Assembly: GCF_006345805.1 (NCBI RefSeq)
Contig: NC_042997.1
Coordinates: 177,630,001 to 177,694,000, forward strand
Direction of reading: 5' to 3'
Length of the DNA stretch: 64,000 nucleotides
DNA from: Octopus sinensis
Lineage: Eukaryota
The notes beneath the pieces are model-generated. The model was not told the DNA's origin. It worked only from the letters and a program-made list of their open reading frames with translations, and ran no database searches. Shown piece by piece: positions 3,034 through 48,840 of this stretch. The position numbers and the translations under genes were made by a program. The number at the start of each line of letters is the position of its first letter. Within the stretch, counting starts at the first letter, position 1.

Positions 3034-3381
3034 AATAAATTTTTGAATAAACTTTAAATAAAATTCAGTATCTTTAGCTGTAAATTTTAATTATAACTTT
3101 ATCTCTTCCATTAAGAAAAAGAAAATGTATGCAAATGTGTGTGTATCTATCTACGTACAAATATATGTTTGTATCTAATAAAGCAATTTTATATGTATGT
3201 GTGCATGTGTATATGCACAATATACTAGAATATATATATTAAAATAAATATAGATATTAATATTGATATCTTAATAAAAACAGATATTAGTGTAGATATA
3301 ACAAATGTAATTATTAACAGAGATATAATAACTACAGATTTCAATATAGATATATTAAATGTGTGCGTGTGTATATGTATG

Positions 3382-3384
<3 letters not shown>

Positions 3385-3448
<64 letters not shown>

Positions 3449-3463
3449 ATATATATATATATA

Positions 3464-3532
<69 letters not shown>

Positions 3533-3572
3533 TAGATAGATAGATAGATATATATATATATATATCTATCTA

Positions 3573-3616
<44 letters not shown>
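3385..3616. repeat. Compound (TA)n/(GATA)n microsatellite
   Basis: Direct inspection. Confidence 0.95.
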
Positions 3617-3621
<5 letters not shown>

Positions 3622-4419
3622 GCATATACATATACATACTTACAAGCATACACACACATGTGCATATACATATGATAAATGTAAATGCTAATATAGATAT
3701 AATGAATATAGATATTTAATATAGATATTATACCTGATATAACGATGGACCACGTGCTATTAAAAAAGAAAGGGAAAAAAGCATAATGAATCAGGAAGAG
3801 AGAAAGAAAAAGAAAATAAGTGAGAATTGTAAGCTTTACAAAAAACCTTATTTGTCACCAGTAACTATTACTTTGTCGATACGAAAGGTTTCTAGTATCA
3901 GAAAGTTCCGGAAAAAATTAACTCGCAGATGCAAAGATATGGCTGTATGCCAAAACGATATATTGGTAATATAATGCTGAATTTTCAAGAAGTTCGCTTC
4001 GTATTCATGAGGTCTTAAGAAGCCCGCTTTGCAGCCACGACGTTTCGGGTTTAGTTCCACTACGTGGCACCTCGAACAAGTCTCTTCTACTATATCCTCG
4101 GGTTCACCGACGGCTTGTGATGGAAACTATAAACGATGTGGAAGCTCGCACCAAATTTGGCAGCCGGTGTTAGTTTCTTTACGTCCCTGTTACTTATCTG
4201 TTCGGAAAAAGAATAAGTACCTTACATAAAAAAAACATATAACTTTGTCCAGCTAAAACACTTTAAGTAAGAAAAAATAAGAGAGATAATGCAAACTGTG
4301 TAAGTATGTCGGAAAGATTAAAACAGTAATTGAAGCAACCATTCGACTGGTTACACGAATTTTTCCTGAAAATTACGCTATATCTGGAGAACTTTCACCC
4401 TCTTAAACTATAATTGCTT

Positions 4420-4800
4420 TTTATTTTGGTACAAAGGCAGCTATTTTAGGGGATGGGGTTAGTCGGTTACATTAACCCCAGTGCTCAACTGATACTTAGA
4501 TTAGCGACCCCGAAAGAATGAAAGGTAAAGCTGATCTCGGTGGAACTTGAGCTCAGAACGTAAAAAGCCGGTAAAAATGCCGTTAAGCATTTTATCCGAC
4601 GCGCTAAGGATTCTGCCAGCTTATCATCTCTGACTTACTCTACAATTCTTTCTACTTTAGGCAAAAGGTCTGAAATCCTGGAGAAAGAGGTTGGGTCGTG
4701 ACAGTTGATTACATCAACCCCAGTGTTCGACCGATACCTAGTTTGTCAACCTTGAAAGGATAAAAGGCAAAGTTGACCTCGGCGGGAATTGTGCTCAGAA
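4420..4800 (-). mobile_element. Two adjacent degenerate copies of tRNA-derived SINE family B
   Basis: Matches gacccc(g)aaaggatgaaaggcaaagtcgacctcggcggaatttgaactcagaacg shared with other copies. Confidence 0.8.
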
Positions 4801-5439
4801 CATAAGTGTATGTCAGTGGATGAAAGAGAATAGGAAATTGAAAGACTGAGAAATATATTTCGAAAGATAAAATCAGGTGCGTGCGCGCACACACACACAA
4901 AAACACGCGCGCTCACAAACACATGCGTACACGCACGCACACACACACGTATGCATGTATACATGCATACACGCACACTCACACAAACACATGTAGATAC
5001 ATAGAGAAAATGATACGGGGAGAGAGAGTGAAGAAAGCTAGCAAGCAGAAACATCGAAGTCGCTGTCAACCATTTCTTTGTGAAAGTTTAATTAGCATTT
5101 TGTCTTCTAAATAGTATTGAATAATCTTTTAGCAGAGAGAGAGAGAGAGAGGGGGAGGGAGAAAGAGAAGAAGAGGAGGAAAGAGGAGAGAGGGAAAGTG
5201 TTTGCGCATGCGCACGTATTTGTGTGCACGCGTGTGTGTATGTGAAAGCGATAAAAATAAAGCGAAGGAGAATATAAATGAAAGCATTATACAAAGAAAA
5301 GAAAGGAGAGAGAGATAGAAAACGAGTGAGAAACATCTGGAGAAGGAGAGAAACAATGAACAAAGGAAGAATGAGAGAAGGAAGAGACAAACTCCGAGTA
5401 AGCTTTTTCCAGATTCCAGATGGATAATCTTTCAGTGAT

Positions 5440-5950
5440 GTTGTTGTTTAAACCACTAGTAAGCGCTGATGGAATGGAGCAAAATTGTTCAACGATATTA
5501 CAGCTTCAACAGCTGGTTGAACATATCCTTTTTTAGGTCTTATGTAGCTTAGATTACATTATTCAATTTGTCTTCCCTTCTAATTTTAAGACGATAAAGT
5601 GTCATAAGAAAGCGGTTAGGCTGCTATTTCTAGCAACGACTCAGAGGTTTCCTTGTCTTGTAGTAGTTGATGTACTTCTTTGTGTTTAACCCCAAATCAA
5701 TCCTATTCGAGCAGATTTATGATATATGATCAAAAGTATTTCAGTCGTAGACAAATATAGTGCAGTTAGGACTACATTATTCGAAGCCTTTCTCACATTT
5801 TTTTTGTGGCAGGATATGATATCATAGTAATTAGCTGCTATTTCTAGCAAGACGAGCAACAACATAGAGGTTTCCTTACTGGGTGATCGAGTTATTGTAG
5901 TTGCTGTTTAGCTCCATATTTGCTCTGACCAAACATACATACCTATGATC
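5440..5950. repeat. Tandem degenerate copies of an unclassified interspersed repeat (also near 26400-26470 and 55300-55430)
   Basis: Motifs gattacattattc and gctgctatttctagca..agaggtttcc recur at ~220-bp spacing and elsewhere in the window. Confidence 0.5.
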
Positions 5951-6049: not shown

Positions 6050-7560
6050 AGAGAACTAGATGTAATAATCCATGAAATATTAATTAACTAAAATTACAAG
6101 AGGGAATAAGATGGATTTTAAAGTGGAAATAACTAAATATTGGACTCTCAATAGAGAAGTGAAAAGGTGTTCAAGAAACGATAAAAGAAGACTCTCGGAA
6201 ATGAAAGTTGATGAAGTTGATAAATTACTTAATGCAAGAGGCTGTATTGGAATCAGAAAATGTTATGAAATATTAAACAAGATTACTGGCAAAGTAAAGA
6301 GATCAAAAAATCCTACTTGTGTTTAATATTAATGGAGAACTAATAACGTCTGATATAAACATCCAAGAAAGACGGAAAGAACATTTTAATAGTCATGACC
6401 AAGGCGTTTAATTGGAGAAATGCTTTGGTAATTCCTGAACCTCAAGAGGAGCTGGGAGTGTCTGTACATGAAATAACTGTCGAGGAAATAGTTGGAGCTG
6501 TAGAGCAATTAAAAAGAAAAAGATTTGGAGATTAGATGGAATTGAAAGAGACATACTTAAAACCAGGAAGTACGTAACTGCAAGAGCATTATTGAAGCTG
6601 TTTCGTAATGTATGGAAGATCGAACGGATACCTAAATATTTGGAGGTCGGTAACGTGACAGTATATCGGAAAAGGGGACCCCACCTAGAGTATGTTGCAT
6701 TTGTGGATATATAATATTGAATAGCAAAGTACTGAAGAGGGTATGCATTTCATTGGGCAATATACTAAGGGATGAACAAATCGGGTTCCGACGACTGTGA
6801 GATTTTAGTGACTAGATACTAGGAACATTATGCGTTGAATTCAGAGGGACTTTGGTTATGGCTTGTGTTGAAAATGTATTTGATGGTATGTATATGGTCA
6901 TAGTTAAGAAAGTACTACATTGCTATGTTTTGAAGGAAAGGATGTAAATCTAATAGGTCAATACGCTAAAGAAATAACTCTTAAATGAATTAGGAGTGCT
7001 GCAATGAGGTGTTTTATTCCTTCTCCTGTTTACAGTTCTAATAAGCTGCATAATGAAGGAAATGGTTGAAGAAGAAAGAGGGAGAATTCATAGGACTTAT
7101 GGACATGGTTTAGCAGATTTGAATTATGCTGATGGCATTGTTTAGCTTAGAATTAAAACACCAAATTACACATAAATACATACGACCTTGATGATATAGG
7201 GCTTACAATTAAATATCAGTAAAACTGAATCTATGAAGGCCAATCAAACAGATAACAGAAATGTGTCTCTGGATGAGTACATAGTAGAATAGTAAAATAT
7301 GTTTAATTATGCTTGGTACTTTTGTAGAAAGTGATGTCTTTACAGTGTTAATGTAATGAAAAATCTGAAAATGTAAATCAAGCAATGAAAATACTTTCAA
7401 ATGTGTGAACATCACATATACAAGCGATTCATAACAAAATTAACCCGATACGTCACTAGTCGAAAGTGATTTAGTATATGGAAGAGAATCATAGCATGTC
7501 ATTCAAACTATAGCTAATCGTTTACAGGTTTTGAATATAAGTGATAATAAAGAATAGAAA
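6050..7560 (+). pseudogene. Highly decayed RTE-clade LINE reverse transcriptase region
   Basis: Remnant motifs DEQIGFR (~6771) and DLNYADG (~7116, YADD box) with many stops and frameshifts. Confidence 0.6.
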
Positions 7561-7654
7561 TATGTAATATAAACCAGTAAATTCTTCGAATATTTAATAT
7601 CCCTTAGGTGTAAAATACACCTAGCTAAACTGATATATATATATATATATATAT

Positions 7655-8289
7655 GGTTTGGCATCCTTTCTGTCTCGGGAGACAATGGAGTTGCGCATTT
7701 TTTTTTCTTTTTTTTTTTTTTTTCTTTTTTCTAGGTCTAGTCCGGCTGTTATATTTTATTTCCTGTTACATTTCTTGCTGTGGCTGTGTAGTCCTATCCT
7801 GGACAAACACTCCCTCTGGCAGGTACTGCAAATGTAGCGAAGACTGTTCCTGGCTGGTTGTAGTGTCATGGTCTCTTGTTTATGTCTCTTCCTTTCTTTC
7901 CATTTCTCCTCTCTCTTTCTGTCACTCCTCTGTATACCCTCTTTTACTGTACGTCGCCATTCTCCACGGTTGCCGGCGACTGCCTCCCAACCGCTAATGT
8001 TGTTGTTGCAGGCCTTCATATCCCCTTTGCAAACATCCTTGTAACGTAAGATCGGTCTACCCACAGACCTAGTACCCCTAGCAAGCTCTCCGTAGAGTAT
8101 GTCCTTGGGGATTCTGCCATCTTTCATACGGCTAACATGCCCAAGCCATCTCATACGTCTTTGTGTGAGGAGTGCAAACATGCTTGGTATTCCTGCTTGC
8201 CTGAGGACATCTTTGTTGGGGATATGATTCTGCCATTTGATGTGGAGGATTTTTCGGAGGCAGCGCAGGTGAAAGATGTTTAGGCGACG

Positions 8290-8292
<3 letters not shown>
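7655..8292 (-). mobile_element. 5'-truncated RTE-clade LINE (ORF C-terminus with C2H2-like motif and 3' UTR), flanked by (TA)n on both sides
   Basis: [67 protein letters not shown]; stop at 7756. Confidence 0.9.
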
Positions 8293-8332
<40 letters not shown>

Positions 8333-8428
8333 TGTGTGTGTGTGTGTATTTGTGTGTGTGTATGTATAAATATATATTTATATATATATATGTATATATA
8401 TATATATGTGTGTGTATATGTATATATA

Positions 8429-8460
<32 letters not shown>

Positions 8461-8474
8461 CATATATATATGTG

Positions 8475-8512
<38 letters not shown>

Positions 8513-8891
8513 TGTTTGTTATGAGTGGGTTGGCAAGGACGTACTTTACAAGGACGTCTCGCCAAGTCTTTCTCGTACATCACTGATCAAAGATTTCTGT
8601 TAAGACAAGCGGGACAAATGGACGTGATATGACTCTTCAACTGAAGAGGGACGTTTGTCTTTTATGAAATACTAATACTAACCACCAAGAGGGTTGGTCA
8701 AGTTAATGAAGCATGGTAGATAAAAATAACTACTACTGCTCAGATACACAAGGAAAAGCCTGCATTACGTCTGGTAGTTCAATTGAACTGATAGTTCAAT
8801 ATTTCATCCCCCAACCGAAGATTTATATCTATTCAGTAAATCTGAGACATTTGATCGAATAAGGATCCAAATTACTCTTGTGAAATAAGTA

Positions 8892-33476: not shown

Positions 33477-34735
33477 GATTGATTGATTCTAGTTTCAGCT
33501 TATGAGCTGTGGCCACGCTGGGGCACCGCCATTTGGTGTTGCTACTTGGTTTCACTTCATGGAGGCTTTCTAGCAACTGCTATTTGGTGCAAGAGAGAGT
33601 TCGATGCAGCTGCCCTCATCTGCCCCTCCTGCCGTGAAGTTGGTTCATCTGGGACACCTGACAGGAAGAGATCCAGCTTCATTTTAAAGACATCTGTATC
33701 CACTCCATGCAGGTCTCTCAGGTTCTTCGGGAGGATATTGAAGAGCTGTGGGCCTCGGAAGCCCAGGCTATCACAGAATCTTGTCCTACATCTTGATGGC
33801 AAGTTTGGAGTCCTAGGCACCATGCTGTGGCGCCCAGTTCTGGCATTTGCGTAACTCTCGATGCCAAAGTTCAGGACACTTCCCTCCAGGATCTTCCAGA
33901 TGTATATTATGGCATATCTTTCCCGCCTACGCTCCAGGGAATATAATTTTAATCTCTTGAGTCTTTCCCAGTAGCTTACATTCTGCATAGAGGCTATCTT
34001 CTTCGTGTAGCTTCGTTGGATCGCCTCAAGTTCTGTGATCAACTTGACGCTGGATGGTGACGATAGCTGAGAGCAATAGTCAAAGTGGCTTAGGACAAGT
34101 GTCTTCCAGAGGACCATCATGGTTTCTTGTTCTCTTGTTCTAAAGGTTCTAAGAATCCAGCCAGCCAGCCGTCTGCATTTCATTGTCAGTTTAGCAACAT
34201 GTACATGAAAGGTCGCGTCATCACTCATGTGAATACCCAGGTCACGCACTGATTGTGCCTCTGGGATTGCAATCCCTCCGGGTCCAGTGTATTCATTGGG
34301 TATTGCATTCAGTTTTGCATGCTGATAGTATAAAGCTTGAAACTTTTCAGCATTGAACTGCATGCTATTCTTTTCAGCCCACTTGTATATTTCGTCCAGC
34401 TCATATTGCAGGTGCTTAGTATCTTCAGGGTTCTGTATTGCCTGTGAAACTTTTGTATCATCTGCATAACTTGTGATCGTGGCTCTCCGCGTGGCTGAGG
34501 GCATGTCTGAGAGGGCCATTATGAACAGTAGTGGTCCCAAAACAGTGCCCTGTGGAACACCGCTCACTATTTGGCTGCTACCACCTGACTTCTATTCTTC
34601 AGAAAGTCGTGAAGCCATTCTCCTAGTTTTCCAACTATGCCAAGATCACGCAGTTTGTGACATATCATTCCATGATCGACTTTATCGAAGGCCTTTGCGA
34701 AGTCGAGATATATGACTTCCACATTTGAGTGGTTG
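33477..34735 (-). mobile_element. 5'-truncated CR1-group LINE (RT domain and 3' end), one frameshift near 34567, flanked by TA repeats
   Basis: YLDFAKAFDKVDHG, SGVPQGTVLGPLLF, YADDTK, RDLG, SYWERLKRLKLYSLERRR; stop at 33557; (AATC)n tail. Confidence 0.93.
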
Positions 34736-36527: not shown

Positions 36528-37820
36528 TCAGGGCATCCCATAAGTTCTGTCCGAATTTTGAATAAAGAAAAGTGATCAAGTGTTATATTTATTTGAAATT
36601 TAATCATCAATGTACTTTCCCTGATTATCTGACATGACTTCCTTCCATCTATTTACAAGCTTTTTAATCCCATCAATGTAAAACTCTTTTGGTTTCAAAA
36701 CGAAGAACACTGAAATGTCAGTTTCGACCTCCTCCTGGCTTGCGAAAGTTATGTCCCCCAAATGATTCTGTAAACTACGAAACAAATGGTACTCTGAAGG
36801 AGCAGGGTCGAGAGAATAAGGTGGATGAGGAGTTTCTTCCCAACTAAGCACTTCGATCTTCTGTGATGTGATCTTTATAGTGTGGTGTCGCGCATTGTCT
36901 TGATGAAACATCACTCCTTTTCGATTCAATAAAGCGGGTCTGTTTTTTCTTCAAAGCTTGGTTCAAACCTTCTGATTGCTGACTGTAGATTTGAGCATAC
37001 ATTGTTGCATTAGTAGGTGGTAATAATTCAAAGTAAATTACTCCTTTACAATCCCACCAGATAAAGAGAAGAACCTTTTTTTCCATGAAGTTCCCTTCTC
37101 GGTTGTGGTTCAGCTTTTCCTTTTACCAAGCCACTGTTTACGACATTCAACATTTCGATAGAAGATCCATTTTTCGTCACCAATCACAAGCCTATCCAAA
37201 ATGGGTGAAATGAGTTCGTGAGAATGGAGAAAAGAGCAGATGTCAACTCGGGATTTGCGGTTGCTTTCGGACAATTCATGAGTCACCCATTTTCCAAGTT
37301 TAGGAACCTTTGCAAGTTGTTGAAGATGACAATGAACAGTTCTATGGTTTGAACTAAGCTTTATTGCCAATTCTTGAACTGATAATGCAAGATTTTCTTC
37401 AGGTAATGCATCAAGGAGCTTATCATCAAACTCAACTGGACGTGCTGTTTGATCTTCATTTTCAAGGCTGAAATATCCACTTCTGAATTTTCCAAACCAT
37501 CTTCTGCAAGTTCTTTCATCCAAGCATTCTTTCCCATAAACTCAGTGTATGTTTCGAATCGCTTCGGCTGCAGAGTTTACATTTTTGTACTCATAAAGCA
37601 TTATGTGCCTTAAATGCTCTTTGGATACTTCCATGTTAGAAAGGGTTTTAATCAAAGAAATTTAAATTCTATTATTCTGTAAAATAAAATTTAATTAGTT
37701 TGAATGTACACAAATGAATAAAAATAATTTTTTATTCCATTAGACATCCTAAAGTACTATAAAATTTCATTCAATTTTAAAAAAAAGGTAAAATCGGACA
37801 GAACTTATGGGATGACCTGA
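36528..37820 (-). mobile_element. Near full-length mariner (DD34D) transposon, transposase disrupted by frameshifts
   Basis: TIRs TCAGGGCATCCCATAAGTTCTGTCCGA / TCGGACAGAACTTATGGGATGACCTGA with TA flanks; ATG at 37634 (MEVSKEHLRHIMLYEY), WVTHEL, GDEKW, HQDNARHH, HPPYSLDPAPSEYHLF; stop at 36600. Confidence 0.95.
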
Positions 37821-47462: not shown

Positions 47463-47540
47463 AGGGTAGAAATTGATGTTAATCAATTAAAACCAGTGGC
47501 TTAGCATATTTAAAAATCCGAAGATTAAAAATTGTTCTAC

Positions 47541-47782
47541 ATACAAAATTAAGAGGAATGACCACTAAAGTGGACACCCTATATGCTAAACATAAACGTC
47601 AAATCGCCATTACCACGAAGAATGTGTTCTCAAGAAAAAATCTCAGCAAAGCAAATTTTTACCGTTTGGCGTTTTGCTGAGATTTTTTCTTGAGAACACA
47701 TTCTTCGTGGTAATGGCGATTTGACGTCTATGTTTAGCATATAGGGTGTCCACTTTAGTGGTCATTCCTCTTAATTTTGTAT
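47541..47782. repeat. Long hairpin, 110-bp arms with a 22-nt loop
   Basis: 47541-47650 is the reverse complement of 47673-47782 with ~1 mismatch. Confidence 0.92.
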
Positions 47783-47800
47783 ATATACATATATATATAT

Positions 47801-48674
47801 ATATCTAATGAAGGATAAAATATTTTCTAAAAAAATATTCTTTTCCAAAAAAATTTTATCAATGGCCAGCATATCAAAATATACCTTTAAAGGTTAAATC
47901 TATAAACAATTCATAATTAAGGGCAAACGAAAAAGTCATTGTGCTCATGACTTAGTGTTCGCTTCTTCCATGGGTATGAGTAAGTATCTCATTTATATCT
48001 TTTGCCACATGTATCACTGACGAAGGGAGGGCTGTTATAAGCTAACCCTGAAATCGGTCCGATATGGTAATAATGGTATGTTTTAGAAATATCTGTCGAC
48101 CTTTTTTCGAGTAGCGTGCATATTGTGAAAACATTATATGGTTAATGGACAATATGTCCAATTTTTCGGCATATCTGGCATTAGAAATTTTTTCGTTTGC
48201 CCTTAATTATGAATTGTTTATAGATTTAACCTTTAAAGGTATTTTTTGATATGCTGGCCATTGATAAAATTTTTTTGAGAAAAGAATATTTTTTTCGAAA
48301 AAATTTTATCCTTCATTAGATATAAATTTAAGCGTTCACTTCCGGACTCTTTCACTCTGTGAGAGCATTAGTTTAAATCGCACGTGTCTCGAATAGGCTG
48401 GAGTATTTCTATTTTGGATGTATTTGGGGTACTTAATTGTGCTCATGACTTAGTGTTCGTTTCTTCCATGGGTATGAGTAAGTATCTCATTTATTTCTTT
48501 TGCCACATGTATCACTGACGAAGGGAGGGCTGTTATAAGCTAACCCTGAAATCGGTCCGATATGGTAATAATGGTATGTTTTAGAAATTTCTGTCGACCT
48601 TTTTTCGAGTAGCGTGCATACTGTGAAAAAATTATATGGTTAATGGACAATATGTCCAATTTTTCGGCATATCT
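47801..48674 (+). mobile_element. Penelope-pLTR/retrozyme-like element: inverted arm plus partial tandem repeat with two hammerheads
   Basis: IR 47801-47934/48189-48323; DR 47938-48176/48436-48674 (period 498); HHR tgtatca CTGACGA aggg..ccct GAAA tcgg TC cgatatg at 48010-48066 and 48508-48564. Confidence 0.8.
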
Positions 48675-48840
48675 TACATATATATATATATATATGATAT
48701 ACTTCTTTCAGTTTTCGTCTATCAAATCCACTCACAAGGCTTTGATTGGACCGAGGCTGTGGTAGAAAATACTGCCCAAGGTGCAAGGTTCAAAAATATA
48801 CAAATATGAAAGAATAACAAACAGATGTATACATCCATAC

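What the first reader, a model, noticed from the sequence alone, without database searches (positions are those of the whole stretch)
47801..48674. Two identical hammerheads 498 nt apart: predicted excisable, possibly circular, RNA monomer
Seen: a 239-bp direct repeat with period 498, each copy carrying tgtatca CTGACGA aggg..ccct GAAA tcgg TC cgatatg. It is preceded by a 134-bp inverted copy of an internal segment and bounded by TA repeats, with no ORF in the track. Established: tandem HHRs release unit-length RNA in retrozymes, and minimal HHRs work as dimers through the palindromic stem III. Inference: cleavage after 48059 and 48557 would give a 498-nt monomer. Caveat: both copies have an A.C mismatch at the base of stem I.
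Basis: partly seen in the sequence, partly recalled or inferred. Interest (0 to 1): 0.72.

Follow-up and report, generated by a model that had tools for sequence, protein, structure and literature searches.

The report
Octopus retrozyme copy, cut site corrected
This is one of hundreds of copies of a small protein-free jumping repeat that carries a predicted self-cutting RNA motif; the kind (a retrozyme) is known from other animals, and the shape of its insertions suggests a Penelope-type enzyme copies it from two paired start points, possibly on a circular RNA.

Summary
The repeat geometry is confirmed, but the ribozyme was read in the wrong register. The stretch is one insertion of a non-coding family in a probable octopus genome: 737 exact hammerhead matches, plus 654 for a sister lineage. 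Copies are 5'-truncated head-to-tail runs of a ~498-nt unit in (TA)n, often with an inverted 5' arm. None of 129 sampled loci is fused to a Penelope ORF. Comparison with the sister lineage moves the predicted cut 5 nt, to after A48064 and A48562. That gives a 4-bp stem III, removes the A.C mismatch and leaves the monomer at 498 nt. Copies end at two fixed internal sites, not at the cut. In two-armed insertions one arm starts at each site in 56 of 59 cases. Intact Neptune-type Penelope elements that also end in (TA)n are present as likely helpers, but share no sequence with the unit. Cleavage, expression and circles are untested, and one array argues against a pure monomer circle. Verdict: new member of the animal non-LTR retrozymes. 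This scan has reported the same kind many times on other DNA, probably this family too.

The parts
47780..47803 (.). Left (TA)n tract, target of insertion
   Evidence: sequence; family 3' ends abut TA in 161 of 174 arms that end at the two canonical sites
47804..47934 (-). Inverted 5' arm: unit positions ~252-383, its 3' end at family site B against the TA tract
   Evidence: blastn self-match to 48189-48320, 97%; 81 of 129 loci hold both orientations
47938..48435 (+). One full 498-nt unit, non-coding
48436..48674 (+). Second, partial unit (positions 1-239); its 3' end is short of the two usual family ends and lies 13 nt from where the inverted arm stops
48012..48069 (+). Type I hammerhead 1, corrected register: stem I 48012-48016/48065-48069, core 48017-48023, stem II 48024-48049 with a 2x2 internal loop, GAAA 48050-48053, stem III 48053-48063, predicted cut after A48064
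   Evidence: cleavage not tested
48510..48567 (+). Type I hammerhead 2, identical; predicted cut after A48562
48065..48562 (+). Predicted 498-nt monomer RNA, cut to cut
48211..48222 (+). Family 3' start site A (unit ~274-285), TATA microhomology with the target
   Evidence: 87 of 228 arms end here, 82 against TA; junction letters
48314..48326 (+). Family 3' start site B (unit ~377-389), TATA microhomology with the target
   Evidence: 87 of 228 arms end here, 79 against TA; most of 19 more that the aligner cut short also reach it
48263..48310 (+). AT-rich hairpin between sites A and B
   Evidence: self-match; fold
48675..48697 (.). Right (TA)n tract
   Evidence: sequence

Best explanation
The stretch is one copy of a high-copy, protein-free repeat of head-to-tail 498-nt hammerhead-bearing units inserted in (TA)n, likely a non-LTR retrozyme whose RNA would cut itself after A48064 and A48562 and likely be copied by Penelope-type enzymes from two paired internal start sites. 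Shown: the family, its anatomy, the absence of an attached ORF in the sample, conservation and covariation of the hammerhead in the corrected register, and the A-plus-B pairing of arm ends. Inferred chain: read-through (probably Pol II; six runs of five or more T argue against Pol III) of a copy with two hammerheads gives a 498-nt monomer; a host ligase closes it (RtcB does so in vitro for axolotl and mussel retrozymes, PMC7229834); a Neptune-type reverse transcriptase and GIY-YIG endonuclease cut (TA)n; each DNA end primes by TATA microhomology, one at site A and one at site B; the two cDNAs run on across the ligated cut site and are joined head to head, giving tandem units plus an inverted arm. 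My odds: retrozyme-type element moved by Penelope machinery 0.85; corrected cut site 0.9; family catalytically active when it spread 0.8; circle as the usual template 0.5; this locus still expressed and cut 0.25.
For: Copy number: 737 and 654 exact matches, controls 0. Anatomy in 129 loci: 85 with a head-to-tail junction, 81 with both orientations, 17 with two intact hammerheads in tandem; this matches the partial tandems, inverted 5' copies and (TA)n bias described for Penelope-like elements (PMC8557442, passages). Arms: 56 of 59 pair site A with site B, binomial p 6e-14; 13 of 23 two-armed sister loci read by eye as A+B, none clearly same-site. Template passes the cut site intact: 23 of 233 arms cross it two or more times, 3 arms stop within about 8 nt of it. 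One-unit origin: 9 of 40 tandem loci share a variant seen in no other sampled locus, the window copy among them. Helpers exist: open RT + GIY-YIG frames of 775-781 codons with a CX4CXXC linker ending in (TA)n.
Against: No cleavage or RNA data. The predicted lowest-energy fold pairs the core away: active form about 4-6 kcal/mol above the minimum in the two-hammerhead transcript, median gap 7.0 in this lineage against 3.25 in the sister. RNAalifold alone recovered only stem II. Much covariation is one lineage split counted many times, and column 66 also covaries with column 7 in the other register. The longest array alternates a 28-nt deletion between units, and a second array holds two unit types, which a single monomer circle would not give. 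Only 37 of 65 segments have their nearest neighbour in their own locus; private variants were 14 shared against 77 single and are private only within the sample. No sequence link to any coding Penelope element was found. Only 1 of 9 Xenopus retrozyme dimers cleaved in vitro (10.64898/2026.07.22.740005).
Confidence: 0.6

Rival explanations
1. Same element and helper, but the template is an uncut linear multimer (or two RNA molecules, or a dimer circle); tandems come from read-through of source arrays and template switching, and the hammerhead only trims transcripts occasionally.
For: Alternating 28-nt deletion in the L183 array and two unit types in L184; one arm stops near the other arm's start site in 14 of 81 pairs against 8.1 expected, p 0.012, and never both ways, as in twin priming on a linear RNA; inactive fold favoured; a single hammerhead survived intact in a block duplicated along with a Neptune-type 3' end; Naiads spread with tandems but without canonical hammerheads (PMC8557442).
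Against: Shared private variants in 9 of 40 tandem loci; core conserved while N7 varies; several insertions have both arms running past the other's start site (for example L033, L111, L115, L120, L156), which adjacent-site twin priming on one linear RNA does not explain.
Confidence: 0.3
2. The unit is only the pseudo-LTR of a coding Penelope element, and these are 5'-truncated copies.
For: Penelope pseudo-LTRs carry type I hammerheads (PMC4209133); only 129 loci of at least 737 matches were examined.
Against: 85 of 129 loci run from unit end into unit start rather than into coding sequence; Penelope protein matches occur in 8 of 129 flanks, each at least 180 bp away and not continuous with the unit; the one case of two family hammerheads around an intact ORF proved to be a passenger 480 bp beyond that element's own end, absent from 13 other long-ORF loci.
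Confidence: 0.06
3. One reading: cut after GUC at 48059, dimer-dependent, with an A.C mismatch.
For: GUC is the classic triplet (recalled); the helices of that register are well paired within this lineage.
Against: Fails in all 36 sister copies at A15.1-U16.1 and in 33 of 35 copies of this lineage at 2.1-1.1; those helices belong to the predicted inactive rod; mispairs next to the core were a rejection criterion in PMC3088659 (passage).
Confidence: 0.05

Closest known systems
Animal non-LTR retrozymes (coral, mussel, axolotl; Cervera and de la Pena 2020, PMC7229834; parts 2-4 of 6 read, supplement unreadable)
   Same: Non-coding head-to-tail units with a type I hammerhead, low GC, strongly self-paired monomer, coexisting with Penelope-like elements.
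   Different: Unit of 498 nt against about 170-400 there; mostly dispersed insertions of 1-2 units with inverted arms rather than long arrays; hammerhead predicted to be blocked by self-pairing, which that paper says is unusual for animal retrozymes; circular RNA shown there, untested here.
Vertebrate non-LTR retrozymes as non-autonomous Penelope derivatives (bioRxiv 10.64898/2026.07.22.740005; parts 1-3 of 5 read, supplements closed)
   Same: Meets their working definition (two consecutive units with complete hammerheads); unit size inside their 51-972 bp range; monomers outnumber multimers.
   Different: No cephalopod in their 35 species; they link families to pseudo-LTRs by sequence, which I could not do; they do not analyse insertion ends in the parts read.
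Neptune-type Penelope-like elements (PMC8557442, passages; PMC4209133, parts 1-2 of 4)
   Same: 5' truncation, partial tandems, adjacent inverted 5' copy, (TA)n targets, hammerhead near the 3' region.
   Different: No ORF; two alternative 3' ends used as a pair; hammerhead has a canonical core and 4-bp stem III, whereas the coding elements sampled here carry a U3-A8 type variant.

Membership tests
Type I hammerhead ribozyme | Core C3 U4 G5 A6 N7 G8 A9, G12 A13 A14 A15.1, U16.1 H17 | tested here: met
   48017-48023, 48050-48053, U48063, A48064; H17 = A in 193 of 196 copies that fit my pattern (4 of 36 sister loci did not fit and were left out)
Type I hammerhead ribozyme | Paired bases next to the core in stems I, II, III | tested here: met
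   Corrected register: 2.1-1.1 in 69 of 71, 10.1-11.1 in 68 of 71, 15.1-16.1 in 71 of 71 (the last partly by selection). Window copy has A-U, not the usual G-C, at 10.1-11.1
Type I hammerhead ribozyme | Covariation in the stems | tested here: met
   9 of 18 pairs with double changes, 1 of 500 shuffles as high; related sequences, so not a probability
Type I hammerhead ribozyme | Self-cleavage | not testable with these tools
   needs in vitro transcription
Non-LTR retrozyme | Tandem units each with a type I hammerhead | tested here: met
   window; 21 pairs in 17 of 129 loci
Non-LTR retrozyme | No protein coding, no LTR-type ends | tested here: met
   longest open stretch 54 codons; ends are internal sites in (TA)n; primer-binding site and polypurine tract not searched for specifically
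Non-LTR retrozyme | Highly self-paired monomer | tested here: met
   z = -6.7, 0 of 100 shuffles as low; 65% paired as a circle
Non-LTR retrozyme | Expressed as linear and circular monomer RNA | not testable with these tools
   needs RNA experiments or raw stranded reads
Non-LTR retrozyme | Coexisting autonomous Penelope-like elements | tested here: met
Non-autonomous Penelope derivative | Sequence shared with the pseudo-LTR of a coding element | tested here: not met
   no match in 30 GIY-YIG loci or 13 of 14 long-ORF loci; the 14th is a passenger; only a small share of the genome's Penelope families was sampled
Non-autonomous Penelope derivative | Penelope-type insertion anatomy (partial tandem, inverted 5' copy, microsatellite target) | tested here: met
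Autonomous Penelope-like element | RT plus GIY-YIG ORF between the repeats | tested here: not met

The most novel reading that the evidence does not exclude
A circular 498-nt RNA made by this hammerhead is engaged by a Penelope-type enzyme pair at two fixed internal sites 100 nt apart, one for each end of the cut (TA)n target, and copied round the circle from both. That would be a small non-coding substrate that explains how Penelope-like elements make their tandem and inverted insertions, with a self-pairing switch that keeps the ribozyme off in the circle.
Probability: 0.3. Interest if true: 0.72.

Novelty: new member of a known kind. Interest (0 to 1): 0.4.

Why it matters
Retrozymes are known, and a Penelope partnership is already proposed in print. 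What this family adds is a large set of insertion ends. The near-strict pairing of two start sites bears on how Penelope-type enzymes build tandem and inverted insertions and choose microsatellites, which PMC8557442 names as an open task. A 498-nt unit is a cheap substrate for that test. I found no paper describing an octopus retrozyme or paired-site priming in three searches of the held library; the supplements of the two closest papers could not be read.

Tried and rejected
Rfam: no hammerhead family matched. Expression: no RNA holder listed; contigs of four runs only guessed to be RNA cover most of the stretch but show no start, end or circle-specific joint, and the genome itself holds the junction, so this is no evidence either way. 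Contigs of four further runs of unrecorded kind, under four organism labels, hold the family with the same stem II variants and no listed change in the core; not counted as independent support. Apparent autonomous parent at C1:207.47 Mb: rejected, the unit is a passenger in a 1657-bp duplicated block. Idea that the A.C mismatch came from CpG decay: the G form was found in only 2 copies of this lineage, then made moot by the register change. Idea that the sister lineage has a non-canonical GAC triplet: an artefact of the wrong register, withdrawn; the paper on that rule was not held and is not used. Pile-up of 5' ends at the cut site: none (most passes are forced by how loci were chosen). Core against flank variability (0.8% against 4.2%) mixes subfamily differences with decay and is not relied on. 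A sequence look-up in earlier findings returned nothing.

Full report
Observation. The window holds, between two TA tracts, an inverted arm (47804-47934), one full 498-nt unit (47938-48435) and a partial second unit (48436-48674). The direct repeats are 239 bp with 5 mismatches, the inverted arm matches 48189-48320 at 97%, and no frame is open for more than 54 codons. Both hammerhead motifs are identical. Rfam does not detect them. The genome is 2.72 Gb; that it is an octopus is my inference from recall and from earlier notes of the scan, not a tool result.

Family. A search with the unit gave 2739 first-look candidates, 40 scored. An exact pattern for the ribozyme matched 737 times, control 0. 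A sister lineage about 75% identical matched 654 and 526 times with two other patterns. I examined 129 non-redundant loci of the window's lineage, drawn from the best DNA matches and the first listed pattern matches, with 1.5-2.9 kb of upstream flank. Of these, 85 contain a head-to-tail junction, 81 contain both orientations and 17 hold two intact hammerheads in tandem. The longest run has about four units (L183). Of 228 arms, 87 end near unit position 285 (site A) and 87 near 385 (site B), 161 of these 174 against a TA tract; 19 more were cut short by the aligner and mostly reach B; 35 end elsewhere. Both sites carry a TATA that merges with the target. This is the anatomy described for Penelope-like insertions: partial tandems, an adjacent inverted 5' copy and microsatellite bias (PMC8557442, passages).

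No attached ORF. Penelope protein queries hit 8 of 129 flanks, each at least 180 bp from the unit and not continuous with it. The genome does hold open RT plus GIY-YIG frames of 775-781 codons with a CX4CXXC linker like that described for Neptune, ending in (TA)n. One such ORF lies between two family hammerheads (L093), but that element has its own hammerhead variant and 3' end; the unit lies about 480 bp further on inside a 1657-bp block duplicated at 99.8%, and 13 other long-ORF loci lack it. The unit showed no match in 30 GIY-YIG loci. So the helper is inferred from anatomy and target, not from shared sequence.

Ribozyme register. Folding sister copies showed the solution: stem III is four pairs long, H17 is the A five bases further on, and stem I begins one helix later. 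In the window this means stem III 48053-48056 with 48060-48063, a three-base loop, a cut after A48064, and A48016 paired with U48065. Pair 2.1-1.1 is A-U in 151 of 156 copies of this lineage and G-C in 34 of 40 sister copies (4 of 36 sister loci did not fit my pattern). Limits: much of this is one lineage split; column 66 also covaries with column 7; U16.1 was required by my pattern; RNAalifold unaided found only stem II. Independent of register, 28 of 30 sister loci anchored on the 3' side keep the 5' core while N7 is A 10, G 8, C 7, U 3, the pattern expected of a selected catalytic core.

Activity. Energy models prefer a rod in which the core pairs with the stem III strand: -22.1 against -17.7 kcal/mol locally, and 4-6 kcal/mol per ribozyme in the 47938-48674 transcript. 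The gap is larger in this lineage (median 7.0) than in the sister (3.25). The stem III region is an 11-nt palindrome, and the dimer form scores -37.3 against -23.4 for two active monomers and -43.0 for the best co-fold, so dimer help remains plausible. Tertiary contacts are not modelled. A blocked ribozyme in the circle would suit a stable circular template, but could equally mean slow cleavage; only 1 of 9 Xenopus dimers cleaved in vitro.

How copies are made. Among 81 head-to-head arm pairs (79 loci), 59 have both ends at canonical sites: 56 are A+B, 1 A+A, 2 B+B (p 6e-14). In the sister lineage 13 of 23 two-armed loci read by eye as A+B, none clearly same-site, 10 with an odd or ambiguous end. 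So each end of the target is primed from a different fixed site. The window copy has a B arm and an atypical end at 239, 13 nt from where the B arm stops. Templates cross the cut site intact: 23 of 233 arms do so at least twice and 3 arms stop near it, so they were uncut or religated.

Circle or line. For one-unit templates: tandem units in a locus differ by 2.9% against 8.0% between loci, and 9 of 40 tandem loci share a variant private within the sample, including T at unit position 140 in both window repeats. Against: 77 private variants are single; only 37 of 65 segments have their nearest neighbour in their own locus; L183 alternates a 28-nt deletion and L184 holds two unit types; one arm stops at the other's start in 14 of 81 pairs against 8.1 expected, as twin priming on a linear RNA would give. 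I put the circle at about even odds.

Comparison. The element meets the testable features of animal non-LTR retrozymes (PMC7229834, parts 2-4 read; 10.64898/2026.07.22.740005, parts 1-3 read). It fails, on a limited sample, the test of shared sequence with a coding pseudo-LTR, so I say it works like a non-autonomous Penelope partner without naming its parent. Searches for hammerhead with octopus, retrozyme with cephalopod, and Penelope-like with twin priming found no description (listings only); unread supplements may bear on this. The scan itself has 52 findings with these words in at least 4 genomes.

Verdict. Real feature, known kind, cut site corrected by 5 nt, with a strong paired-start footprint worth a bench test. 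Interest 0.40.

Noticed in passing
window 47538-47785: A foldback with 113-nt arms (98% complementary) directly left of the element; it belongs to another repeat family (1948 first-look candidates), several copies also as inverted pairs.
   Followed up: partly
window 45277 (minus), 28941 (minus), 59457 (plus) and 58983 (minus): Four further type I hammerhead-like motifs of other families; the last two are identical and in opposite orientation next to a (TA)42 tract.
   Followed up: no
L093:184-1837 and 6117-7772: A Neptune-type element with a partial tandem that carries about 1.1 kb of downstream DNA, including one copy of this family and another short repeat; looks like 3' transduction, though a DNA duplication or assembly effect is not excluded.
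   Followed up: partly
L093:1874-3313 and 3232-5577; L097: These Neptune-type elements have a 479-codon upstream frame with no Pfam match overlapping the 781-codon RT/GIY-YIG frame.
   Followed up: no
L093:6545-6590 and L095-L098, L102-L104: The coding elements carry a hammerhead-like motif with the U3-A8 type core change described for schistosome Penelope elements (PMC4209133).
   Followed up: no
L187-L246: Sister lineage with about 470-nt tandem spacing, a more canonical hammerhead (G-C at 2.1-1.1, in part at 10.1-11.1) and a smaller predicted barrier to the active fold; the better candidate for cleavage assays.
   Followed up: partly
L014, L034, L118, L175, L180 and the window copy: Several arms lack sequence between unit positions ~230-270 and ~310-350, or end near 230-250, suggesting recurrent jumps soon after priming.
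   Followed up: no
window 33557-34591 (minus), 7756-8586 (minus), 36600-37541 (minus): Open frames that look like fragments of LINE reverse transcriptases and of a mariner-type transposase; labels recalled, not searched.
   Followed up: no
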